NCBI GenBank assembly: GCA_963783375.1
Contig: CAWANH010000028.1
Location: 1,376,001 to 1,440,000 of the forward strand
Direction of reading: 5' to 3'
Length of the DNA: 64,000 bases
Source: Candidatus Eiseniibacteriota bacterium
GTDB taxonomy: Bacteria; Eisenbacteria; RBG-16-71-46; JABDJR01
Made by a program: the position numbers and the translations under genes. The notes under the pieces are model-generated. The model was given only the letters and a program-made list of their open reading frames with translations. It made no database searches and was not told the DNA's origin. Each line of letters begins with the position of its first letter. Position 1 is the stretch's first letter. Below, one piece after another: positions 46,460-63,650 of the stretch.

Positions 46460-47134
46460 TCAATGCTTGAAGCGGCGCCGGCTTCCCCACGCGGCAAGGA
46501 GTCCTCCCCCCAGGAGGAGCAGGGTCGAGGGTTCCGGGACCTCGGGGACGGAGCTCTCGTTGGGCCGCTGGGCCACGAGGAAAGGCTGGTTGAAGCCGCC
46601 GTTGTCGCGGAGCCCGTAGCTCAGCACGTTCGTGCCGCCGTCTCCGGCCACGTACCCGCCGTAGAAGTCCAGGAAGTCCCGCTGGTCGGTGAGCTCGTCC
46701 GCCAGGCAGCTCTGAAACGCCGTCGAGGTGCGGGGGATGTTGAACGCCTGGGCGAAACTCAAGCCGTCCTGGTCGTTGGAGGTGGTGAACCCCGACGGGA
46801 CCCAGGCCGGCTGGGGGCTGGGGTCGTAGCGGTCGAAGTAGTCGCCCATAGGATCCAGCAGTTCGTTGGCGAAGCGGCCCCAGCCGACTCCGGTGAGATT
46901 GGTCAGGTGCTTGTTGAGGGTGTAGTCCACGCCGGCGGCAAGGCCTGTGAACTCGAGGAAGCCGTAGCCCTGGGCCCCCCAGGTTTCGTAGACGTCGATG
47001 GTGTTGCCGCTCACCGAGTACGTCATGCTGGTGATGCCGACGTTGCTCGAATAGAGCGTCACGGTCACGGCCTGGGCGGGAACCGCCCCCAGAATTACCA
47101 GGGCGGCGCCCAAGACCAGAATCCTGGTTCGCAT
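46460..47134 (-). CDS. PEP-CTERM sorting domain protein
   Basis: Signal peptide; C-terminal VPEVPEPSTLLLLGGGLLAAWGSRRRFKH; AAGGAG RBS. Confidence 0.9.
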   Translation of the reverse strand: MRTRILVLGAALVILGAVPAQAVTVTLYSSNVGITSMTYSVSGNTIDVYETWGAQGYGFLEFTGLAAGVDYTLNKHLTNLTGVGWGRFANELLDPMGDYFDRYDPSPQPAWVPSGFTTSNDQDGLSFAQAFNIPRTSTAFQSCLADELTDQRDFLDFYGGYVAGDGGTNVLSYGLRDNGGFNQPFLVAQRPNESSVPEVPEPSTLLLLGGGLLAAWGSRRRFKH

Positions 47135-47201
47135 GACGATCATCTCCTTGCGCGAGGATGGGTAATCCGCCCTGACAGCGCACGTGCCCGCTGGCTGATA
47201 T

Positions 47202-47217
47202 TGCAATCCGCGGGCCA
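47202..47217 (-). promoter_or_regulatory. Sigma54 -24/-12 promoter of the PEP-CTERM gene
   Basis: TGGCCCGCGGATTGCA (GG-N10-GC), with a TTGT-N11-ACAA palindrome upstream at 47306-47324. Confidence 0.65.
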
Positions 47218-47982
47218 TCGGAGCAGAAAAGGTGCAGCTCTAACCCGATTCTGAACAACCGCTTAGGAATTGGTAGTAAATCAATCACTACAGTCTCCCT
47301 GAAAGTTGTAATCAATCTCGACAATGCGGGTCGATCAGGGCAAGTTCTTGAGCCAGCTAAATACTTAACGCTATGATTGTATGCGTGTTACTGGTGTTCT
47401 GGGTTCAGCATCGTTCCCATCTAAATTCGTAAACTTTGGAGACGGCTCGAATCCCCTAGGTAACCCGTGTTGCCGATGTGGGTTGTGGGCTCCCTGGTCC
47501 GGGGTAGGGTCCGGGGCCCCAGAGGGGAAGCACCCTAGGCTGCGGGTTGACCCCAGTGACCGCTTCCCCCTCCCGTAAGCACAGCAGATCCGCCCAGAGT
47601 GAGGACGCCCCGCGGCCGCGGTTTGGCGCGGCGAAGGGCGACTCACCTACCTCGACATACCGATGCTCGCCTCTCCGGTTTCCCGGCGTGAACGCTCCCT
47701 CTTCATCCAGCATGGAGGTTGCGATCGTGCTTTCGCCCCGGACTCGACTTCGGCCGGCCGGTTTTCGATGACTCGAGGTAGACCAGACTCTCCCGGGACC
47801 GTGCACGATCAGGCACGCATTCAGGACCATGCAACTCACCTTTCAAGGCGCCGTTTGTTACGAAGCTTTCGAGCGGACCGGGTAAAATAGCGGGGTAGAC
47901 CGGGGTCGCGCGGGGGGCTTGTGTCGCCTGAGGCACCCGCAGGGTAGAAGGGATCGCGCTTCGGCGCGCACAGGGAGGATGC

Positions 47983-50393: not shown

Positions 50394-50753
50394 CTAGGAC
50401 GGCTTGCCCTTCAGGGCGAGAATCGTCGGGGCCACCAGGCCGATGAGGACGCCGGCCCCGACTGCGATCCCCAGGGCCATGAGCGGGTGGCTCACAACCC
50501 GGCTACGGAAAGCCGTGGTCGCGAGCCTGTCGTGCGCCCTCGCCGTCCGGATCGTGATCCGTCCGGTTTCCTTGACCGCGGCCGCTCCGGAGTCGGCCAC
50601 CTGGCGTGCATCCTTGGCCATTCTGACGAAGTCGCTCTGCAGCCGTCCGAAATCCATGCCGAGTGTCTGCATGTTGCTCGGGGGTTGTGTTGCGCTGGTG
50701 GGTCCGCCGTCGGTCCCCGGCTCGCTCGTGGTCAAAGTACTCGCCTTCGGCAA
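50394..50753 (-). CDS. Small membrane-anchored protein, DUF883/ElaB-YqjD-like
   Basis: C-terminal HPLMALGIAVGAGVLIG; GAGG before the TTG start. Confidence 0.55.
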   Translation of the reverse strand: MPKASTLTTSEPGTDGGPTSATQPPSNMQTLGMDFGRLQSDFVRMAKDARQVADSGAAAVKETGRITIRTARAHDRLATTAFRSRVVSHPLMALGIAVGAGVLIGLVAPTILALKGKPS

Positions 50754-50882
50754 GGAGTGCCTCTTCGTTCCGCGCGTTCATGGGCCGAGCACGCTGTCTA
50801 CCGTCTCCTGGGGCACCCGCGACTGCCCCCCGCTCCCTCGACGCAGCCCTCTCCGCGTCGGCGGTGACCGACGAACGGCCGC

Positions 50883-51911
50883 CTACGGCTTGACCGGGTT
50901 TTCAAGGACGATTTCGACTCGCCGGTTGTTGGCCCGCCCCTCGCTGGTGGCGTTGCTGGCAATCGGGTGTTCCTCGCCCATTCCGTTCGCCTGCACGCGA
51001 CCCGACGGATAGCCCTTGTGAATGAAGTAGTTGCGAACGGCGTCCGCGCGCCGCTGCGACAGCTCTTGATTGTATTGATCGGACCCCTGGGAATCGGTGT
51101 AGCCCTCTACCACGATGTTGCGATCGGGGATCGAGACCAGGGCGGCGACGACCTGATCGAGCTTCGACTCAGCGCCGGGCATGAGCCGGGCCTCACCCGA
51201 GCGGAAGAGCACGGTTCCCGAAAGGGTGATGATCATCCCGCGGGCCTCTTCCCTGACCGCGGCGAGCTTTGCGAGCGCGGCCTGGGCATCGGCCGCCTGC
51301 TTCTCGGCCTGGGCCCGGGCGCTCTGCTCCGCTTCGAGTTGAGCCTGAGTCGCCTGGCCGCTCTGTTCCGAGAGCGCCAACGCGGTCCGGGTCTGGTTCA
51401 GATCCTGCGCCACCCCTTGGGTCCGCATGCGTTCCGCCGCGGCCTTGTCATCCGCGACCGCCCGGGCCCTCTTCTCGGCCGCGAGTTGCGTCGCCGTCTC
51501 CTGGCGGTTCTGCTCCGACGCCGCGAGTGCGGTCTGCGTCCGGTTCAGGTCTTCGGTCTTCTCCTGGAGAAGATTCCCTTGAGTGGCCTGATAGGCCTTG
51601 TCCGCCTGCGCCGTGCGCGCCTGCTCGATGGCGATGGATGCCTGCGCCTCGGCGATCTCGGCCTTCCGCTGGGCTACATAAGCGAGGTCGCGGGTACGGT
51701 ACGACTTGGCGTCCTTGGAGAAGGATGCCTCGGCCTGGGCCAGCGCCTTCTCCGCGGTGTGCAGGTCCGCGGGGGCCATCTGGGCCGCCGGTCCCTCGCT
51801 GGCATGAGCGTAAGCCAGGCGCGCACTGGTGAGTTCGCTGGGGACGGTGGCGGCACAGCCGAAGAAGGAGGCTGCACACGCGATGGCGATCAATGCTCCG
51901 GTGATTCTCAT
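50883..51911 (-). CDS. DUF4398-like plus OmpA C-terminal domain lipoprotein
   Basis: Lipobox FFGC, coiled coil, VEGYTDSQG, NQELSQRRA, GRANNRRVEI. Confidence 0.9.
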   Translation of the reverse strand: MRITGALIAIACAASFFGCAATVPSELTSARLAYAHASEGPAAQMAPADLHTAEKALAQAEASFSKDAKSYRTRDLAYVAQRKAEIAEAQASIAIEQARTAQADKAYQATQGNLLQEKTEDLNRTQTALAASEQNRQETATQLAAEKRARAVADDKAAAERMRTQGVAQDLNQTRTALALSEQSGQATQAQLEAEQSARAQAEKQAADAQAALAKLAAVREEARGMIITLSGTVLFRSGEARLMPGAESKLDQVVAALVSIPDRNIVVEGYTDSQGSDQYNQELSQRRADAVRNYFIHKGYPSGRVQANGMGEEHPIASNATSEGRANNRRVEIVLENPVKP

Positions 51912-51931
51912 GAGATGCCCCTTCCGGGTGG

Positions 51932-52285
51932 TCATCGGTTATCGTTCTGAAGCTGGCGCACCCGCGCCATGGCCTCGGCGGCCGCCGTCTGCTCGGTCTG
52001 CTCCTTGGAGAGCAGGGCGGCCAGTTCCGCGTCAGCCTCGGCCCGCAGCAGCATCGAGTCAGCCTTGTCCTTGTCGCCCTTGTCCGCCAGGCTCTTGGCC
52101 TGAGCCAGCTCTTCCCTTGCAAGCTGCAAGTGGAGTGCGGCCTGGGGAACGTCCTTGGCTCCGACCGCCTCCGCCGTGCTTATGGCCGACGTGGACGACT
52201 CGGTTTGCAGGGGAGGATCACTGCCCGCGCAGCCGGCGGCGACGAATGCGAAGAGAAGAGCTCCGTACGTCAATCTGAATCTCAT
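51932..52285 (-). CDS. DUF4398-like lipoprotein
   Basis: Lipobox AAGC; AALHLQLAREEL...RAEADAELA. Confidence 0.82.
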   Translation of the reverse strand: MRFRLTYGALLFAFVAAGCAGSDPPLQTESSTSAISTAEAVGAKDVPQAALHLQLAREELAQAKSLADKGDKDKADSMLLRAEADAELAALLSKEQTEQTAAAEAMARVRQLQNDNR

Positions 52286-52317
52286 TCGGATTTCCTTCCT
52301 TACCGCCCATGGTGGCG

Positions 52318-52974
52318 TCAGAAGTTGTAGCCCAGCGCCAGCGTGGTGGTGAAACCGTTCAACTCGAATCCGTTCAGGGTGTATTCGGTATCGTTCAGCT
52401 TGATCTTCTGATCGCCGAACGACGGGTTGGCCCAGACGTAACGCCCTTCAACTCCCACGAAGAATGCGGGGCTTACGTTGACGTTGAGACCGACTCCGGT
52501 ATGAAGCCCGAAGGTCGTGCTTCCGTTGAACGTGTTGAGATTGTTGCTGACATCGACCTTCGTGAAATAGGCGCCGATGCCCAGCTCACCGTAGGGGTCG
52601 ACCGGTCCCGCCGGCATGAAGGCCTTGGCCGAAACCAGGACCGGAACCACGTCGAAGTCGACCTGATCACTGGTTGCGAGCGGGCCCGTTCCCGCGACGG
52701 AGCCCGTACCCCGGAAGTATCCGATGCCCAGCTCGAGGGCGAAGGTGGGAAGGAAGAAGTGCCCGATGGCGAGTTCCCCGTCCACGCCGGTTCTGGTATT
52801 GCTGTCGAAGGTGGTCTCGACGTTGACATTCGAGAGATTGAAGGACTTGCTGGGCGAGTAGATGCCGCCTTTGAGGGCAACATAGCTGCCGAGCCGGCCG
52901 GCCTCGGAAGCCCGGGGCGCAAGACCGATCACGCTGAAGATGATCAACAAGGCCAAAGAGGATTTCGTCCTCAT
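52318..52974 (-). CDS. Outer membrane beta-barrel protein (OmpA/OmpW-like, small barrel)
   Basis: Signal peptide, alternating strands, PYGELGIG, terminal LGYNF. Confidence 0.85.
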   Translation of the reverse strand: MRTKSSLALLIIFSVIGLAPRASEAGRLGSYVALKGGIYSPSKSFNLSNVNVETTFDSNTRTGVDGELAIGHFFLPTFALELGIGYFRGTGSVAGTGPLATSDQVDFDVVPVLVSAKAFMPAGPVDPYGELGIGAYFTKVDVSNNLNTFNGSTTFGLHTGVGLNVNVSPAFFVGVEGRYVWANPSFGDQKIKLNDTEYTLNGFELNGFTTTLALGYNF

Positions 52975-53127
52975 GGTCGCTCCTTTTGAGGCAACGCGTG
53001 AGTTGCGTCGCCGGGGGCTCCATTCAGGAGCCCTTCGCGGGGGGGATGCCGTGAGGTCAGCGCCGCCTGTTCTCAATCGCAGGCTTGGCGTGCCGCGCTC
53101 CATTCTCCCCGCACGCAGCATTCGTTG

Positions 53128-53596: not shown

Positions 53597-53998
53597 ATGA
53601 GAATGTACCAAAGGGTCACGTTGGCCTTCATTACCGCCGGGGTGGTTGCGGTCGGCGCCGCAGGGTCCTGCCTTGCGGGAGAGCCGCAACGCAACGTCGT
53701 CGGCGACCAGGAGATCCAGGCCACGATCGACCAGCAAGTCGGCCAGGCCGACGCCGACCGGCTGGCGATTCAGGTCCTGTTGCAACGGGAGGATGTCAGC
53801 CGGATCGCCGGGTCGGCCGGATTGGATCTGGAGCGGGCCAGCGCCGCCGCCGCCGGCCTGTCGGGACCCGACCTGGAAAGGCTGGCGGCTCAGGCCAGAG
53901 GGATCAATGAAGGGTTTGCGGGCGGAGACGGCACCGTCGTGCTTTCCACGACCGCGATCATCATCATTCTGCTGATTCTGATTCTTCTCCTGAACTGA
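53597..53998 (+). CDS. PA2779-like exported protein with a Gly-Gly motif and very hydrophobic C-terminus
   Basis: Signal peptide; LSGPDLERLAAQA...FAGG-DGTVVLSTTAIIIILLILILLLN; GGAG RBS. Confidence 0.75.
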   Translation: MRMYQRVTLAFITAGVVAVGAAGSCLAGEPQRNVVGDQEIQATIDQQVGQADADRLAIQVLLQREDVSRIAGSAGLDLERASAAAAGLSGPDLERLAAQARGINEGFAGGDGTVVLSTTAIIIILLILILLLN

Positions 53999-54009
53999 AC
54001 TCTTCGATC

Positions 54010-56086
54010 GTGAAATCGTGGCGGACAGCCGGCGTTTGCGTGGCGACGGCCGCTCTGGCCTGGCTCACTCCCGCCAGCGCCGAAGCGAAGTCGGTTCGGA
54101 AGAGCGCTCCGGAGACGGTGGAGCTTCTCGACGTACCGTACGTCCCCCAGAGCGGAGAGCTGTGTGGCGGAGCGGCACTCGCCATGGTTCTGCGCTACTG
54201 GGGGAAATCCGGCGTCCTGGCGGAGGATTTCGCCCCGCTTGCGGAGCCGGGAGCGGGCGGTATCCGTACCGGCGCACTGGTGAGGTGGGTCGAGGCCCAT
54301 GGGTGGTCCGCGCTCCGCTTGCCGGGAGCCCCGGCGGAGGTCGAGAGTCATCTTGCCCGGGGCCGCCCGGTCATCGCTCTGATCCGGACCGGTTCGGGCT
54401 CCTACCACTACGTGGTACTCGTGGCCTGGGCCAACGGGTGGGTGATCCTCCATGACCCCAACGTGGGGCCGTTCCGAACCGTTCGGGAAGGGGAGTTCGA
54501 GACCGCCTGGTCGGGAAGCGACGACTGGGCACTCCTGGTCCTGCCGCCTCCCGCGCCTCGGGAGCCGGTCCTGCCGGATTCCGGAGGCGCCGACCTCCCT
54601 CCCCGCGTCATCCCCGATGGATGCGGCGCCTTGGTGGACGCGGGGGTCCTCTTGGCCCGGGAAGGAGACATCGCGGAAGCGGAGCTCAAGCTTCGTGGCG
54701 GCTCAGTCCCTTTGCCCCGAGTCCGCCGTCCCCGCTTCGGGAACGGGCAGGGTTGAGATTTCGTGCCGAGGACTGGGAGGGGGCGGCCGGCTCGCGGAGG
54801 AGGCGCTGGCTCTGGATCCGGGCGATGCCCACTCCTGGCGGCTTCTGGCCGGAAGCCGCTTCCTGGCCGGGGACGTGGAAGGGGCGCTCACGGCCTGGAA
54901 TCACCTGTCCGAACCCAGGATCGACCTGACCCACATCGACGGCCTGAATCGCATCCGCTACTCCGCGGTGGCCGGCCAGCTCGCCTTGCCTCCCGGGCGG
55001 CTCCTCACGCCTCAGGCCTTCCTCCAGGCGCGCCGTCGTCTGGCCGAATTGCCCTCCCAGTCCGATTTCCGGCTGAGCTTGCGGCCCTTGCCGGACGGAA
55101 GGGCTCAAGTGGATGTGTCCGTGCTGGAGCGCCCTCCGCTGTTCGGCGGTTTCTGGGACGCCGGAAACCTGGGCATCCGGGCGCTCCTGGACCGGGAGAT
55201 CACCCTCGACGTCGTGAGCCCCACCGGGAACGGGGAACTATGGAATGCCGGATGGCGGTGGCAGAGGCAACGGCCGCGCGTCGCCCTGGACCTGGCGGTG
55301 CCGGGGGCCGGAGGCCGGCCCGGAATCTGGCATGTGGCCGGATTCTGGGAACGACAGACCTATGCCTATCCGGGGTTCGCCGGCTCGGGTGGCGCGACTC
55401 GTTCCCGGTCGATCCAGGAAGAGCGCCGGCGCACCGCCCTGTCCATTTCCGATTGGATCGGCCCGAATTTCCGGCTCGAGGTCGGGAGCGCCCTGGACGA
55501 GTGGGTGGGTCGGGGATCCCATCTTTCACTGGAGGGTAGCGTCGAGACCCGATGGGCACGAGACCGCCTGGCATTGGGGGCAAGGGGAGCAAGGTGGATG
55601 AGCCTCGCGGACGGCGCCCCGTTCGGCGCCGGCGGCCTCTCGCTCACCTGGTGCTCGGATGGTCTCGAGAGGCGCGAGGGGTGGCAGGGCGGTCTGGAAG
55701 TATCCGCCGCTACCCGGGAGGCTCCACTGGCTCTCTGGTCCGGAGCCGGAACCGGGTCCGGGCGTACCCCGCTCCTCAGGGCTCACCCGCTGCTGAACGG
55801 GGGGGTTCTGGAAGGGCGGGTGTTCGGGCGGGCGCTTGCTCACGGGACGATCGAGAGGCAGGTGTGGTCGCACAGCCTCGGTCCCTTCCGTCTCGGCTGG
55901 GCGGTCTTCGTCGACGGGGCCAAGCCATGGGACCTGGGGCGCCCGGGCCGGGTCCCGTGGCAGGTGGACGGCGGAACGGGGCTCCGGGTTCACGGTCCGG
56001 GAATGAAGGGGAAACTCAGGGTCGACGCCGCCCGCGGGCTTCTCGACGGGAGCTCGGCGGTATCCGTCGGTTGGAGCATTCCCTGA
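54010..56086 (+). CDS. C39-like cysteine peptidase-TPR-POTRA-Omp85-type beta-barrel fusion (frameshifts at about 54690-54790)
   Basis: VPYVPQSGELCGGAALAMVLRYWG, YHYVV, HDPN; TPR helix pair readable across three frames; POTRA (IDGLNRIR...ARRRLAEL...VDVSVLERP); barrel end FVDG...GTGLRV...LRVDAARG...VSVGW. Confidence 0.72.
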
Positions 56087-56172: not shown

Positions 56173-57336
56173 CTATCGCAGAAGTACAACTCTCCCCCGG
56201 GCAAGCGCCACGCCGCGGCGGGAGGCCTCGAGGAAGTAGACACCCTCCGCGAGACGCCGCCCCACACTGTCCCGTCCGTCCCAGGCAATCCCGTGGTCCA
56301 TGTCAACGCCGGCAATCGCTAGCCGACGAACGAAGTGGCCAACCGAGTCGTACACCACCAGCGCATCCAGGTTGCCATTCACGCCGGACACTCGAATCAG
56401 CGTGTGTCCGCGGAACGGATTGGGCCGGGCAGTCATCAGCATCGGCTGGGTAGGAGGTGCCAGATCCGCACCCAGCGTGGGAAGGGACAAGTCGGTCATC
56501 ACCCAGATGCCACCGGGACCCGCAAACGCGATCGCCGTTCCATCCGGGGACCAGCATGGCTCCCGGGCGAGGTCCTCGCTCGAGGCCTTGATTTGGACGG
56601 GATCTCCTCCGGACGCAGGAATGGTCCAGAGGGTGTAGCGCTCATTGAGTCCGGGCTGGTGGAATCGAATCGCATAGAGGATCCATGACCCGTCCGGGGA
56701 CCAGTCCGGATCGCGAACTGTGTAGCGATTGTCGGGATGAGAGTAGAGCCCGGTTGGGGCGGCGCTGCCGTCGGCGGGGACCGTAAACAGAGTGCCGCTG
56801 CTGGTGTTGTTCACAAAGGCGATCTTCGAGCCATCCGGTGACCAGGACGGTGCCGTCGACTGGTTGCCGATTCCCTCGATCGGGACACGCGCGGCATAGC
56901 CACCGGGGGTGGCGGGGCAGACGAATACGCGGGAGTTGACCGTGAATGCGAGCTGATCGCCGAGCGGCGACCAACTCAAGTAGTTCGTGTTGCCCCCGAG
57001 GCCGGTTCGCAGCGTGTCCCCGGCCTCTACTCCCGGGCAGATCACTGTCCCGCCCGGGGACTCGAAGGCAACGCTGCTGCCGCCGGGGGACCAGGTGGGG
57101 AACCACGCGATCGAGCCAGCGAGATCATAGGTGACCTCCACCGGCGCTCCGCCGGAGCTGGGGACGATCATGATGTGATAGCCACGCGTATAGACGATTC
57201 GATTGGATCCGTCCCGTGACCACTGAGGGTCATAGCCGCTGTCGAAGGTGATCTGGGTAAACGTGGCGGCGGTGGCGGGGCCGCTGACGAAACCGAGTGC
57301 GGCAAAGAGGAGAAAGAAGAAGGGCAAAGCACGCAT
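56173..57336 (-). CDS. TolB-like (PD40) beta-propeller protein with FlgD-Ig/T9SS-like tail
   Basis: Signal peptide, repeated PxWSPDG, PNPF...WDGRD...GVYFL. Confidence 0.88.
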   Translation of the reverse strand: MRALPFFFLLFAALGFVSGPATAATFTQITFDSGYDPQWSRDGSNRIVYTRGYHIMIVPSSGGAPVEVTYDLAGSIAWFPTWSPGGSSVAFESPGGTVICPGVEAGDTLRTGLGGNTNYLSWSPLGDQLAFTVNSRVFVCPATPGGYAARVPIEGIGNQSTAPSWSPDGSKIAFVNNTSSGTLFTVPADGSAAPTGLYSHPDNRYTVRDPDWSPDGSWILYAIRFHQPGLNERYTLWTIPASGGDPVQIKASSEDLAREPCWSPDGTAIAFAGPGGIWVMTDLSLPTLGADLAPPTQPMLMTARPNPFRGHTLIRVSGVNGNLDALVVYDSVGHFVRRLAIAGVDMDHGIAWDGRDSVGRRLAEGVYFLEASRRGVALARGRVVLLR

Positions 57337-58544: not shown

Positions 58545-59171
58545 ATGAAGACAGAACATAACTCAAATCAGGACAGCACGTTTGCCAGGGCGGTGGCCGT
58601 CTTCCGCGACCACGGAGGGGTGCTCAGGACAATGGAGGCGGTCCGGCTCGGCGTCCACCCGCGAACGCTCTATGCCATGCGGGATGCCGGGGTGCTGGAG
58701 CAACTCGGGCGGGGGCTCTACCGGCTGGCGAACCTGCCGCCACTCGGGAACCCCGACCTGGTGGCGGTAGGCCTCCGCGTTCCGGAGGGGGTCCTCTGCC
58801 TGATCTCGGCGCTGGCGGTTCACGAGATCACGACCCAGATCCCTCATGAGGTCCATCTGGCTCTCAAGCGTGGCGCCGAACCACCACGGCTGGATCACCC
58901 CCCGGTTCGGGTGTTCTGGTTCTCGGGAAAGGCTTTCACGGAAGGGATCGAAACCCACGAGCTGGACGGGATCGAAATCCGCGTCTACGGGGCGGCGAAG
59001 ACCGTGGCGGACTGCTTCAAGTACAGAAACAAGCTCGGACTGGATGTGGCCCTCGAGGCGCTGGGACTCTACCTGCGAGAGAAGCACGGACCCCCCGACG
59101 ATCTCGTGCACTTCGCTCGCGTATGTCGTGTCGAAAAGGTGATGCGCCCCTACATCGAGGCCCTCCTGTGA
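58545..59171 (+). CDS. abiEi: Type IV TA antitoxin, AbiEi family
   Basis: wHTH N-terminus (G.LEQLGRGLYRL), CLISAL..HEITTQIP, KTVADCFKYRNKLG. Confidence 0.85.
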   Translation: MKTEHNSNQDSTFARAVAVFRDHGGVLRTMEAVRLGVHPRTLYAMRDAGVLEQLGRGLYRLANLPPLGNPDLVAVGLRVPEGVLCLISALAVHEITTQIPHEVHLALKRGAEPPRLDHPPVRVFWFSGKAFTEGIETHELDGIEIRVYGAAKTVADCFKYRNKLGLDVALEALGLYLREKHGPPDDLVHFARVCRVEKVMRPYIEALL

Positions 59172-60088
59172 AGCGCCGGCAGGTGGGAAACGTGGCGGTC
59201 TCCGTTCATCAGCGCCTGCTCAACGAGGCGCGTGCGTCCGGCCGGCCATTCAATGAGCTACTCCAGTACTTCGCCATGGAGCGATTCCTATTCCGGCTGT
59301 CCGCGTCGCCATACGCCGAGAGGTTTGTTCTGAAGGGGGCGCTCATGCTCGCGACGTGGGAGATCTCCCTCACGCGTCCCACCAAGGACATCGACCTACT
59401 GGGCAACGTGACCAACGACGTCGATCACATCGTGGCGATCGTGAAGGAAGTGTGCCGTCAAGAGGTCACGCCGGACGGCCTGGACTTCGACCCGGAGAGG
59501 GTGCGTGGGGAGCAAATCGCCGAGGAAGCCGAGTACAACGGGGTGCGTGTCCGCTTTCAGGGGCGCCTCGGTACGGCGCGGATTTCCATGCAGATCGACA
59601 TAGGCTTTGGTGACGCCGTGGTACCAGGCCCGGTGGCGGTCGAGTATCCCACGATGCTGGACCTTCCAGCTCCACGGATTCGCGCCTACACACAAGAGAG
59701 CGTGATCGCTGAGAAGTTCCACACCATGGTTCGCCGGGGACTCCTCAACAGCCGAATGAGGGATTTCTTCGATGTCTGGGCCCTATCGCGGCAGTTCGAC
59801 TTCGATGGGCCGGTTCTGGCGGCAGCAATCCGCGAGACGTTCTCGCGGCGAGGGCAAGGCTTTGCTCCACACCCCGTGGCGCTGACAAAGGAGTTCGCGG
59901 AGGATAGGTCGAAGGTGGCGCAGTGGCGGGGTCTTCTACGGAAGAGCCGCCTGCAGGGCGCGCCGGGCGAGCTGGCGGATGTGGTTGACGCCATTGCCGT
60001 CTTCCTCGGCCCGGTTGCAGAGGCCCTCTATGAGGATCGGGAGTTCCGAGGCCGTTGGGATGCGCCCGGTCCCTGGACGTTGGCGTGA
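59168..60088 (+). CDS. abiEii: Type IV TA toxin, AbiEii nucleotidyltransferase
   Basis: MERFLFRL, FVLKGA, RPTKDIDL, IAEKF, SRMRDFFD; GTGA overlap with the antitoxin gene. Confidence 0.88.
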   Translation: MKRRQVGNVAVSVHQRLLNEARASGRPFNELLQYFAMERFLFRLSASPYAERFVLKGALMLATWEISLTRPTKDIDLLGNVTNDVDHIVAIVKEVCRQEVTPDGLDFDPERVRGEQIAEEAEYNGVRVRFQGRLGTARISMQIDIGFGDAVVPGPVAVEYPTMLDLPAPRIRAYTQESVIAEKFHTMVRRGLLNSRMRDFFDVWALSRQFDFDGPVLAAAIRETFSRRGQGFAPHPVALTKEFAEDRSKVAQWRGLLRKSRLQGAPGELADVVDAIAVFLGPVAEALYEDREFRGRWDAPGPWTLA

Positions 60089-62216: not shown

Positions 62217-63276
62217 TCAACCCAAATGAGACAGCTCCGGTTCTGGGTTAAGAGAGACTTCGGTTCGGTAGAGCGCCGGCAGGATCCGTTCCTCCGGCGT
62301 GACCGACAGGCCCTGGTTCAGGCGGCACCGACGGCGTAGGGTCTGCCGCTTGAACTTCTCCCGGGCGGTCTCGATGTCCCGTCCCCGCCCGTAGTAGACA
62401 TCCGCCGGCGTCAGGTTGTTCAGCGACTCGTGCACGCGCTCGTGGTTGTAGTACCTCACGAACCGCTCCAGCTCCGCCTCCAACTCCCACGGCAGGTAGT
62501 AGTTCTGGAGCTTCACCACGTTCTTCATCGTCCGGTGGTACCGCTCGATCTTCCCCTGGGTCATCGGGTGATAGGGCTTTCCCCGGGTGTGGGTCATGCC
62601 ATGGCTCTGGAGGTACTCGGCCAGCTCCTTCGAGATGAAGCACGGACCGTAGTCGCTCAGGAGCCGGGGTCGGTGCCGGACCTCCACCCGGCGGACTCCG
62701 GTCCGCTCCAGGGCCACGTCCAGGACCTCGGTCACATCCTCGCTCGACATCCCGGTGAAGAGCTTCCAGGCCAGGATGTAGCGGCTGTAGTCGTCCAGCA
62801 CCGTGAGCACGTAGTACCAGCCCCAGCCTACCACCTTGAAGTACGTGAAGTCGGTCTGCCAGAGCTCGTGGACCCGCCGGGTCGGCTGGTCGAACTGGTC
62901 CTTGGCCGAGATCAGCACGTAGGCCGGGCTCGTCACCAGGTCGTAGCTCTTCAGGATCCGGTAGACGCTGGACTCCGAAATGAAGAACCCGCCCCGGTCG
63001 GTGATCCGCCAGGCCAGCTCCCGCGGGGACAGATCCGGCTCCGCCAGCGCCTCTTCCACAACCTTCTCCCGCTCCACCTCTGGGATCCGGTTCCAGAACG
63101 GCCGGGGCCCGGCGGCTTCGGCTCCAGCCCCGCCGGGCCGCCGTCCACGTACGCCCCGTCCGGCGGATCGGCGAAAAGGGGACATTTCAGTTCGGCGAAA
63201 TCGGGACAGCCGGGACCGGCGTTGACACCTCCACCAGGCGGATCGTCTACATCCGCTCCGCCGCCGTCGCCCTCAC
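62217..63276 (-). pseudogene. IS3 OrfB DDE transposase, 5' part disrupted
   Basis: WQTDFTY, LDDYSRY, LSDYG, TQGKIER, YYNHERVHESL. An early stop, a foreign insert and a frameshift lie in the 5' part. Confidence 0.8.
63152..63227 (-). mobile_element. IS21-family-like terminal fragment nested in IS3 orfB
   Basis: Begins TGTCAACGCCGG; two 17-bp direct repeats TGTCCC(GA/CT)TTTCGCCGA with 24-bp period. Confidence 0.55.
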
Positions 63277-63650
63277 CGCGCCCCCAGGTCCTCGGGGTCC
63301 TCCCCCAACCCGGCTAAGTTTCTTTTTAACAGCTGGTTCCGCAGCGATAGGTCCGCCACCAGGTGCTTCAGCCGCCCGTTCTCCCGGCGCAACTCCGTCA
63401 CGTCCCCGCTCGAGGCTTCCCGCTTGGTGTCGCCCATCAGCCGGCGCTTGCGCGCCTCCAGGAACTCCTTGCTCCAGTTGTAGTAGAGGTTCGGGCTGAT
63501 CCCTTCCCGGCGGCAGAGCTCCGCGATGCTCTCCTCGCCCTTCAACCCCTCCAGCACGATCCGGATCTTGTCCTCGGCGGATTACCGGCGGCGGGTCTTC
63601 CGGCGGATCTGACGAACTCGAGCCTCTGGATCGGTTTGCTTCTCGGCCAT
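63273..63650 (-). pseudogene. IS3 OrfA with in-frame stop
   Basis: MAEKQ...IRRKTRRR*SAEDKIRIVLEGL..EESIAELCRREGI; TAA at 63582-63584. Confidence 0.8.

What the first reader, a model, noticed from the sequence alone, without database searches (positions are those of the whole stretch)
53597..56086. Candidate new system: C39-like protease fused to TPR-POTRA-Omp85 barrel, paired with a Gly-Gly hydrophobic-tail protein
Seen: a 133-aa exported protein ending FAGG/DGTVVLSTTAIIIILLILILLLN. It is followed 11 nt later by a gene with a signal peptide, a papain-fold C39-like domain (Q..C, H, D), a TPR pair, one POTRA (~54917-55132) and a barrel with an Omp85-type C-terminal pattern. Established: C39 peptidases cut after Gly-Gly; PA2779/PA2778-like pairs link such small proteins to peptidase-TPR proteins; type Vd PlpD has a passenger-POTRA-barrel layout with a lipase passenger. 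Inference: a self-contained outer-membrane machine that cleaves the partner at GG and inserts or exports a product. I know of no description of this fusion. Caveats: three frameshifts in ~100 nt must be bridged (AELK-FVAAQSLCPESAVP-RERAGLRFRAEDWEGAA-RLAEEAL), and the protein ends GWSIP rather than in Phe.
Basis: partly seen in the sequence, partly recalled or inferred. Interest (0 to 1): 0.8.

Follow-up and report, generated by a model that had tools for sequence, protein, structure and literature searches.

The report
Gly-Gly protease fused to Omp85-type barrel
Two adjacent genes encode a small protein with a conserved Gly-Gly site and a greasy tail, and a cysteine protease joined to an outer-membrane barrel of the BamA/TamA fold; the large protein is predicted to grip the small one and likely cuts it and passes the tail into the outer membrane through an altered side gate, an untested arrangement I did not find in print.

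Summary
Real and conserved. The three frameshifts at 54691-54786 are single-base indels against short-read contigs from three studies. Correcting them gives 691 aa; 97 of the best 120 homologs are 660-720 aa. Architecture: signal peptide, C39 peptidase (Q/C/H/D in 137 of 139 diverse relatives), TPR, one POTRA and an Omp85-fold barrel (TamA Z 22.3). The model has 15 strands, with a helix where strand beta-1 belongs; alignment to BamA and 150 relatives agree. The PA2779-like partner accompanies the gene in 53 of 56 metagenome loci with upstream DNA, and GG is kept in 83 of 85 tails. A co-fold docks the partner's N-terminal part on TPR+POTRA (0.78 against controls 0.00), but does not place GG or the tail confidently. 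Best reading: dock, cut after GG, hand the 22-26 aa hydrophobic peptide to the outer membrane (0.42). Main rival: the barrel only anchors the protease (0.27). The type Vd analogy is outdated. No description found in the paper searches. This scan already noted the module in 21 findings from at least 20 other genomes. New variant of known kinds; function untested.

The parts
53597..53998 (+). PA2779-like precursor, 133 aa: likely signal peptide (about 1-27), helical domain, Gly-Gly, hydrophobic tail
   Evidence: NF033919 E 2.5e-8, 34.1 bits, cut-off 40; homolog P0128 passes at 40.7; all-helical model, pLDDT 70; single copy in the genome
53690..53740 (+). Partner residues 32-48, main predicted docking segment for TPR+POTRA (with residues 80-89)
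   Evidence: Co-fold of homologs P0003 and P0128; numbering colinear with the window protein
53921..53926 (+). Gly-Gly, inferred cleavage site
   Evidence: GG in 120 of 120 close homologs and 83 of 85 distinct tails from loci
53927..53995 (+). Post-GG peptide, 23 aa: beta-branched segment, S/T-x-T motif, about 12 purely aliphatic residues, at most one charged end residue
   Evidence: 22-26 aa in 81 of 83 tails with GG
54010..56086 (+). Fusion gene, 691 aa once three single-base indels are allowed for
   Evidence: 97 of the best 120 homologs are 660-720 aa
54118..54549 (+). C39 papain-fold peptidase domain; Q47 (54148), C52 (54163), H133 (54406), D149 (54454)
   Evidence: Pfam above cut-off; matches 6mpz at Z 18.2, rmsd 2.2 over 133 residues; all four residues in 137 of 139 relatives covering the site
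54619..54901 (+). TPR helices (residues 204-297)
   Evidence: Model pLDDT 79-97; profile hits to TPR structures
54691..54786 (+). Three single-base indels (one extra at 54691/2, one extra at 54726/8, one missing at 54784/6), most likely assembly errors
   Evidence: Contigs of three runs from three studies; P0001 intact here
54917..55129 (+). Single POTRA domain (303-373)
   Evidence: Model; aligns to the last POTRA of BamA
55136..55192 (+). Pro-rich coil plus predicted amphipathic helix (376-394) in the slot of Omp85 strand beta-1
   Evidence: Model helix 381-394, pLDDT 73-83; slot position from HHalign; fixed length in 137 of 150, Pro378 in 102 of 150, no alternation
55196..56077 (+). Omp85-fold barrel, 15 predicted strands (beta-2 to beta-16), with loop L6 (55712-55831), LRAH (55775-55786) and FVDGA (55907-55921) lid-lock variants
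   Evidence: Foldseek top hits BamA and TamA, E 6e-12; VIA Z 22.3 to TamA; Atlas hits Omp85, 0.97; R590 147, F633 144, D635 146 of 150

Best explanation
This is a two-gene envelope module in which a C39 protease-TPR-POTRA-barrel protein is predicted to grip a small partner protein, likely cuts it after its conserved Gly-Gly in the periplasm, and likely hands the released 22-26 residue hydrophobic peptide to the outer membrane through a side gate whose first strand is predicted to be replaced by a helix. Shown: one fused gene, intact catalytic residues, gene pairing, GG conservation. Predicted: Omp85 fold, helix in the beta-1 slot, docking of partner residues 32-48 and 80-89 on TPR+POTRA. Inferred: Sec export of both proteins, periplasmic position of the protease, cleavage, the helical domain acting as a leader and carrier, and the tail being the product.
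For: Fusion is the norm: 97 of the best 120 homologs are 660-720 aa, and the 150 best representatives at under 50% identity are mostly full length. Q/C/H/D in 137 of 139. Partner present in 11 of 11 genome loci with upstream DNA, 53 of 56 such metagenome loci, and 34 of 35 barrel-bearing genomes among 206 of the phylum. GG is the most conserved feature of the partner (entropy 0.12 against 2.02 for the helical domain). Co-fold score 0.78, best control 0.00; the mark was reached by 116 of 157 solved complexes and 2 of 215 mismatches; runs agree in at least 63% of contacts, partner pLDDT at least 72. Lid-lock residues are kept and are of the F-x-D type that PMC4490367 (passages read) assigns to the insertases BamA and TamA. 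The tail keeps a fixed length and a motif beyond hydrophobicity (T119 83%, I129 86%). In L046 the protease domain and the GG are both absent while partner, TPR, POTRA and barrel remain together. A periplasmic C39 serving an outer-membrane barrel has a precedent in FapD/FapF (PMC5557850, passages read).
Against: No experiment. Seven related loci carry partner, stand-alone C39 (6 of 7 by HMM) and no barrel hit in the fetched DNA, so processing does not need a barrel. The tail is about 20 uncharged residues and folds as one helix in the model, which fits a plain inner-membrane anchor. Predicted interface residues of the partner are no more conserved than the rest of its helical domain (2.02 against 2.02 bits). 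L119 has G-E in place of GG with an intact protease. The leader spacing matches the classical double-glycine pattern only in part (pattern recalled). The periodicity test is not clean: strands beta-5 and beta-12 also scored helix above strand per sequence. I could not view coordinates, so where the helix sits is unknown, and loop L6 is poorly modelled (pLDDT under 50).
Confidence: 0.42

Rival explanations
1. The barrel is only an outer-membrane anchor or scaffold. The C39-TPR part sheds the helical domain from an inner-membrane tail anchor, as barrel-less relatives presumably do with a TPR lipoprotein.
For: Seven barrel-less loci with partner, 6 of 7 with adjacent stand-alone C39, several with a TPR gene. 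PlpD keeps its enzyme domain in the periplasm and appears to lack a gate (PMC11116518 Discussion). Tail length fits a membrane anchor.
Against: L046 keeps partner and barrel without the protease. L6 is the most conserved region (entropy 1.21 against 2.0 for the barrel). The beta-1 slot is remodelled to a fixed length. Barrel-less partners have a different tail with a basic cluster, though these loci are mostly one family.
Confidence: 0.27
2. Two-partner-like export: the cut frees the 80-residue helical domain from its anchor and the barrel passes it to the cell surface.
For: The helical domain is what docks on POTRA at the barrel mouth. TpsB proteins FhaC and CdiB are among the fold matches, Z about 20. 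R55, L62, A71, G75, L88, L93 are at least 95% conserved.
Against: The strand-13 motif is F-x-D, not the G-x-D of FhaC-type translocases (PMC4490367). One POTRA only. The cargo is alpha-helical, unlike beta-helical TPS cargo (PMC11116518 Discussion).
Confidence: 0.13
3. Donor-strand completion: the beta-branched segment right after GG supplies the missing beta-1 strand and stays as a subunit or plug of the barrel, so cleavage matures the barrel itself.
For: Fifteen strands leave two same-direction edges. Post-GG residues often alternate hydrophobic and polar. PlpD's lid pairs with beta-1 through a short Ile-Ser-Phe segment (PMC11116518 Discussion).
Against: The slot is already filled by a conserved-length segment. 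The beta-prone part is only 5-7 residues. The monomer model makes it helical.
Confidence: 0.1
4. Sortase-like transpeptidation: the cysteine enzyme cuts at GG and links the helical domain to a lipid or other acceptor, as for C-terminal sorting signals.
For: Signal peptide, Gly-Gly and a C-terminal hydrophobic stretch resemble GlyGly-CTERM (abstract openings).
Against: No basic cluster after the tail. One partner gene per genome by full-length search, not many substrates. The enzyme is a soluble C39, not a rhomboid.
Confidence: 0.06

Closest known systems
PA2779 / PA2778 gene pair (NCBIfam NF033919, NF033920; Pfam DUF6627)
   Same: Small exported protein with hydrophobic end next to a C39 peptidase gene; all 102 aligned partners match NF033919; C39 part matches NF033920 at E 2.5e-12.
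   Different: The peptidase is fused to POTRA and a barrel and scores 46.7 against a cut-off of 150. The pair has no functional study in the library searched.
Omp85 insertases BamA and TamA
   Same: POTRA plus barrel fold (Z 21-22), periplasmic turn after beta-2, L6 arginine and strand-13 F-x-D.
   Different: One POTRA, N-terminal C39+TPR, LRAH and FxDxA in place of (V/I)RG(Y/F) and FxDxG, predicted 15 strands with a helix in the beta-1 slot. The genome has its own BamA.
PlpD / patatin-like Omp85 (formerly type Vd)
   Same: Enzyme domain, one POTRA, Omp85 barrel; enzyme on the periplasmic side (PMC11116518).
   Different: Lipase instead of protease, no dedicated partner gene, 16 strands. None of the ten subfamilies in PMC4104836 is described with a peptidase or TPR (0 occurrences in the main text; supplement not seen).
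FapD / FapF amyloid secretion system
   Same: Sec-exported periplasmic C39 whose active Cys is needed for secretion through an outer-membrane barrel; GG/GA sites proposed (PMC5557850 passages).
   Different: Separate genes, 12-stranded trimeric barrel, Asn/Gln-rich amyloid cargo; NF058616 score 16.7 against 330.
PCAT double-glycine peptidases (LahT 6mpz, ComA)
   Same: C39 fold and catalytic residues; precursor of leader-GG-core form.
   Different: PCATs act in the cytosol on an ABC transporter; here both proteins carry signal peptides and the transporter part is an outer-membrane barrel.

Membership tests
C39 peptidase family | Family HMM above curated cut-off | tested here: met
   PF03412 38.7 (22), PF13529 44.9 (24)
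C39 peptidase family | Papain fold with Gln, Cys, His, Asp | tested here: met
   Z 18.2, rmsd 2.2 to 6mpz; 137 of 139 keep all four
C39 peptidase family | Cleavage after Gly-Gly | not testable with these tools
   Needs an assay; GG conserved in 83 of 85 tails
Omp85 superfamily | At least one POTRA domain before the barrel | tested here: met
Omp85 superfamily | Barrel fold like BamA, TamA, FhaC | tested here: met
   Foldseek E 6e-12; Z 22.3, rmsd 5.3 over 341 residues
Omp85 superfamily | Sixteen strands | tested here: not met
   Fifteen strands and a helix in one predicted model, backed by sequence patterns; a prediction, so filed as Omp85-derived variant
Omp85 superfamily | Lid lock (V/I)RG(Y/F) with (F/G)xDxG | tested here: inconclusive
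   Central R and D are kept (147 and 146 of 150) but motifs read LRAH and FxDxA; L6 poorly modelled
Omp85 superfamily | Pfam Omp85 model above cut-off | tested here: not met
   No hit at E 1 for the C-terminal part; not among 7 genome matches
PA2779 family (NF033919) | HMM cut-off 40 bits | tested here: inconclusive
   Window protein 34.1; close homolog P0128 40.7; 102 of 102 match
PA2778 family (NF033920) | HMM cut-off 150 bits over the whole model | tested here: not met
   46.7 bits, model positions 1-148 of 255, scored on the N-terminal ORF only
Patatin-like Omp85 (PlpD) | N-terminal patatin domain | tested here: not met
   N-terminal domain is C39
TpsB translocases | GxDxG on strand 13 | tested here: not met
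   F633 in 144 of 150
GlyGly-CTERM sorting signal | Basic cluster after the hydrophobic stretch | tested here: not met
   At most one charged end residue

The most novel reading that the evidence does not exclude
A dedicated single-substrate maturation and insertion machine: an Omp85 descendant that traded strand beta-1 for a helix, so that its gate admits a protease-released hydrophobic peptide instead of beta-barrel substrates, placing an alpha-helical micropeptide in the outer membrane or on the surface. It would be a new Omp85 function and a Sec-dependent, outer-membrane counterpart of double-glycine peptide exporters.
Probability: 0.35. Interest if true: 0.88.

Novelty: new variant of a known kind. 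Interest (0 to 1): 0.72.

Why it matters
Omp85 proteins are defined by a 16-stranded barrel whose beta-1/beta-16 seam does the work. A widespread family (782 representatives at E up to 1e-30, some of them partial matches) with that seam remodelled and with one identifiable client would be a simple system for asking what the gate does. It also gives a testable function to the uncharacterised PA2779/PA2778 pair. Standard Omp85 models miss this barrel, so it is hidden in current annotations.

Tried and rejected
Pseudogene or two separate genes: rejected for the family and unlikely for the window; the runs laid are close relatives or possibly the source, not proven the same strain. Missing terminal Phe as a sign of damage: rejected. 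The co-fold placed neither GG in the active site nor the tail at the barrel seam with low expected error; this is uninformative either way. Fold search of the partner gave only common helical bundles, best Z 7.9. Nif11-like leader homology: 1 of 102 members at E 0.029, not accepted. An obligate third gene: none; the largest neighbour cluster is in 17 of 114 loci and is clade-specific. RNA run X16 has contigs over the partner and two short pieces of the fusion; contig depth cannot rank expression, so not used. No sigma-70-like promoter or terminator found. No plasmid match for the partner. NF033919 rang in 0 of 14 control genomes. The BamA beta-1 control returned nothing through a pattern error; one search recovered 23 of 27 segments. 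Phage collections were not searched.

Full report
Observation. The partner runs 53597-53998 and the large gene starts 11 nt later at 54010 and ends at 56086. Short-read contigs from runs X1, X2 and X3, three different studies, each show one base fewer at 54691/2, one fewer at 54726/8 and one more at 54784/6. Allowing for these gives 691 residues. Of the best 120 homologs, 97 are 660-720 aa, and a near-identical relative, P0001, reads through this stretch. These runs are not proven to be the same strain. The missing terminal Phe is normal: 0 of 97 close homologs and 7 of 150 distant representatives end in F.

Anatomy of the large protein. I folded intact homolog P0003 with a 90-row alignment (mean pLDDT 80, pTM 0.71). 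It gives a C39 domain, a disordered linker, TPR helices (204-297), one POTRA (303-373) and a barrel. The C39 domain passes Pfam cut-offs, superposes on the double-glycine protease 6mpz at Z 18.2, and keeps Gln47, Cys52, His133 and Asp149 in 137 of 139 representatives that cover the site. The barrel has no Pfam Omp85 hit, yet its fold matches are BamA, TamA, FhaC and CdiB (best Z 22.3, rmsd 5.3 over 341 residues), and the Atlas returns Omp85 clusters at 0.97. Profile alignment to BamA sequences of the same phylum is weak overall (probability 51-88%) but lines up the landmarks: end of POTRA, the turn after beta-2, the L6 arginine and the strand-13 motif.

The altered gate. The model has 15 strands, ten before loop L6 and five after, and a helix at 381-394 where beta-1 belongs (pLDDT 73-83). 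Across 150 representatives at under 50% identity the segment from the end of POTRA to the turn after beta-2 is 37 residues in 137, has Pro at 378 in 102, and shows the weakest strand-like alternation (0.13 against 0.20-0.73 for the 15 strands); the BamA segment has no Pro in 23 recovered of 27. The test is not clean: per sequence, beta-5 (121 of 161) and beta-12 (116 of 159) also scored helix above strand, against 138 of 161 for the slot. I could not view coordinates, so whether the helix fills the wall, plugs the lumen or lies on the periplasmic face is open. The lid-lock residues are kept (R590 147, F633 144, D635 146 of 150) and are of the F-x-D type that PMC4490367 assigns to insertases.

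The partner. It is PA2779-like: 34.1 bits against a cut-off of 40 for the window protein, 40.7 for homolog P0128, and 102 of 102 aligned members match. GG is present in 120 of 120 close homologs and 83 of 85 distinct tails from loci. The exceptions are L046, which also lacks the protease domain, and L119, whose protease is intact. The peptide after GG is 22-26 residues in 81 of 83: a beta-branched segment, an S/T-x-T motif, about 12 aliphatic residues and at most one charged end residue. The monomer model is all helical and of modest confidence with no informative fold match.

Pairing. The partner is present in 11 of 11 genome loci that have upstream DNA, of 13 fetched. Among 71 metagenome loci, 15 start within or at the gene; of the other 56, 53 carry the partner (51 upstream, 2 downstream) and 3 show none in the DNA held. 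Among 206 genomes of the phylum, 35 carry the barrel form and 34 of these have a strong partner match; the exception has a contig break. Named loci come from records labelled Krumholzibacteriia, Eisenbacteria, Gemmatimonadota and Vicinamibacterales. Kin are not independent. No third gene is shared across clades. The window's genome has its own BamA.

Binding. A co-fold of P0003 (36-691) with P0128 (28-133), both with alignments, scored 0.78 against a best control of 0.00. The mark was reached by 116 of 157 solved complexes and 2 of 215 mismatched pairs, counts that hold only roughly with my alignments; runs agree in at least 63% of contacts and the partner's pLDDT is at least 72. The interface is the TPR groove and POTRA against partner residues 32-48 and 80-89. 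TPR-peptide complexes are common among solved structures, so likeness may contribute. Interface residues are somewhat more conserved than their surroundings on the large protein (1.60 against 1.84 bits) and not on the partner (2.02 against 2.02).

Mechanism. I commit to: both proteins cross the inner membrane by Sec (inferred from signal peptides seen by eye); the barrel sits in the outer membrane with protease, TPR and POTRA in the periplasm (inferred, as shown for PlpD); TPR+POTRA grip the helical domain (predicted); the flexibly linked C39 cuts after GG (inferred); the hydrophobic peptide enters the outer membrane at the remodelled seam (inferred, weakest step). Confidence in docking and cleavage is about 0.8; in the whole chain 0.42. 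The main rival is that the barrel is only an anchor: seven loci hold partner and, in 6 of 7 by HMM, a stand-alone C39, with no barrel hit in the 2.8-9 kb fetched. Against it, L046 keeps partner and barrel without the protease, L6 is the most conserved region, and barrel-less partners have a different tail. Export of the helical domain, donor-strand completion and transpeptidation are lesser rivals.

Literature. Nine searches were run. Three papers hold both C39 and Omp85 as whole words; passages of all three show no such fusion (one text is held only to 300,000 characters). PA2778/PA2779 appear only in passing (passages). I read passages of PMC5557850, PMC4104836 and PMC4490367, the abstract and Discussion of PMC11116518, and only listings for the GlyGly-CTERM papers. 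No supplements were read; Table S2 of PMC4104836 lists Omp85 domain architectures and could bear on novelty. Most subscription journals are outside the library.

Earlier findings of this scan. After recording my reading, a word search returned 21 findings in at least 20 other genomes, 8 shown. They agree, including the helical gate and the grip on the partner. Two report split three-gene forms that I did not test. These notes are not independent evidence.

Verdict. A real, widespread and apparently undescribed two-gene module built from known parts, with one surprising structural feature and a clear experimental route. New variant of a known kind; interest 0.72.

Noticed in passing
L046:3165-5343 (G018): Natural variant without the C39 domain: partner with G-A in place of GG, followed by signal peptide, TPR, POTRA and barrel. 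One case only.
   Followed up: partly
L047, L048, L159-L163: Barrel-less type: partner with a different tail (membrane helix, basic cluster, terminal beta-branched segment), stand-alone C39 and often a TPR lipoprotein-like gene. The beta-branched segment lies after the helix here and before it in the barrel type.
   Followed up: partly
L097:4868-5500, L101:5123-5602: Partner gene lies downstream of the fusion instead of upstream.
   Followed up: no
L003/L035 (G015), L164 (G048), P0001: Other frameshifted copies, at different places, in large-contig assemblies. G048 holds two copies of the module.
   Followed up: partly
window 50394-53121 (-): Divergent envelope cluster: outer-membrane beta-barrel protein (PF13505), DUF4398 protein, DUF4398+OmpA protein, DUF883-like protein. 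The barrel gene neighbours the module in 13 of 114 loci.
   Followed up: partly
window 56173-57336 (-): TolB-like propeller protein with a C-terminal FlgD-like Ig domain, convergent with the fusion gene.
   Followed up: partly
window 58545-60088 (+): Gene pair resembling an AbiEi/AbiEii type IV toxin-antitoxin module; judged by eye, name recalled, not scanned.
   Followed up: no
window 62217-63557: Pieces resembling an IS3-type transposase; by eye, name recalled.
   Followed up: no
window 46460-47218 (-): Exported protein ending in a PEP-CTERM-like sorting signal; by eye, name recalled.
   Followed up: no
G000, loci L049-L055: The genome has seven Pfam Omp85 matches above cut-off, not counting this barrel.
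   Followed up: no
PMC10155442, Table passage: A PA2779-family gene is listed among candidates for strong constitutive promoters in Pseudomonas stutzeri.
   Followed up: no
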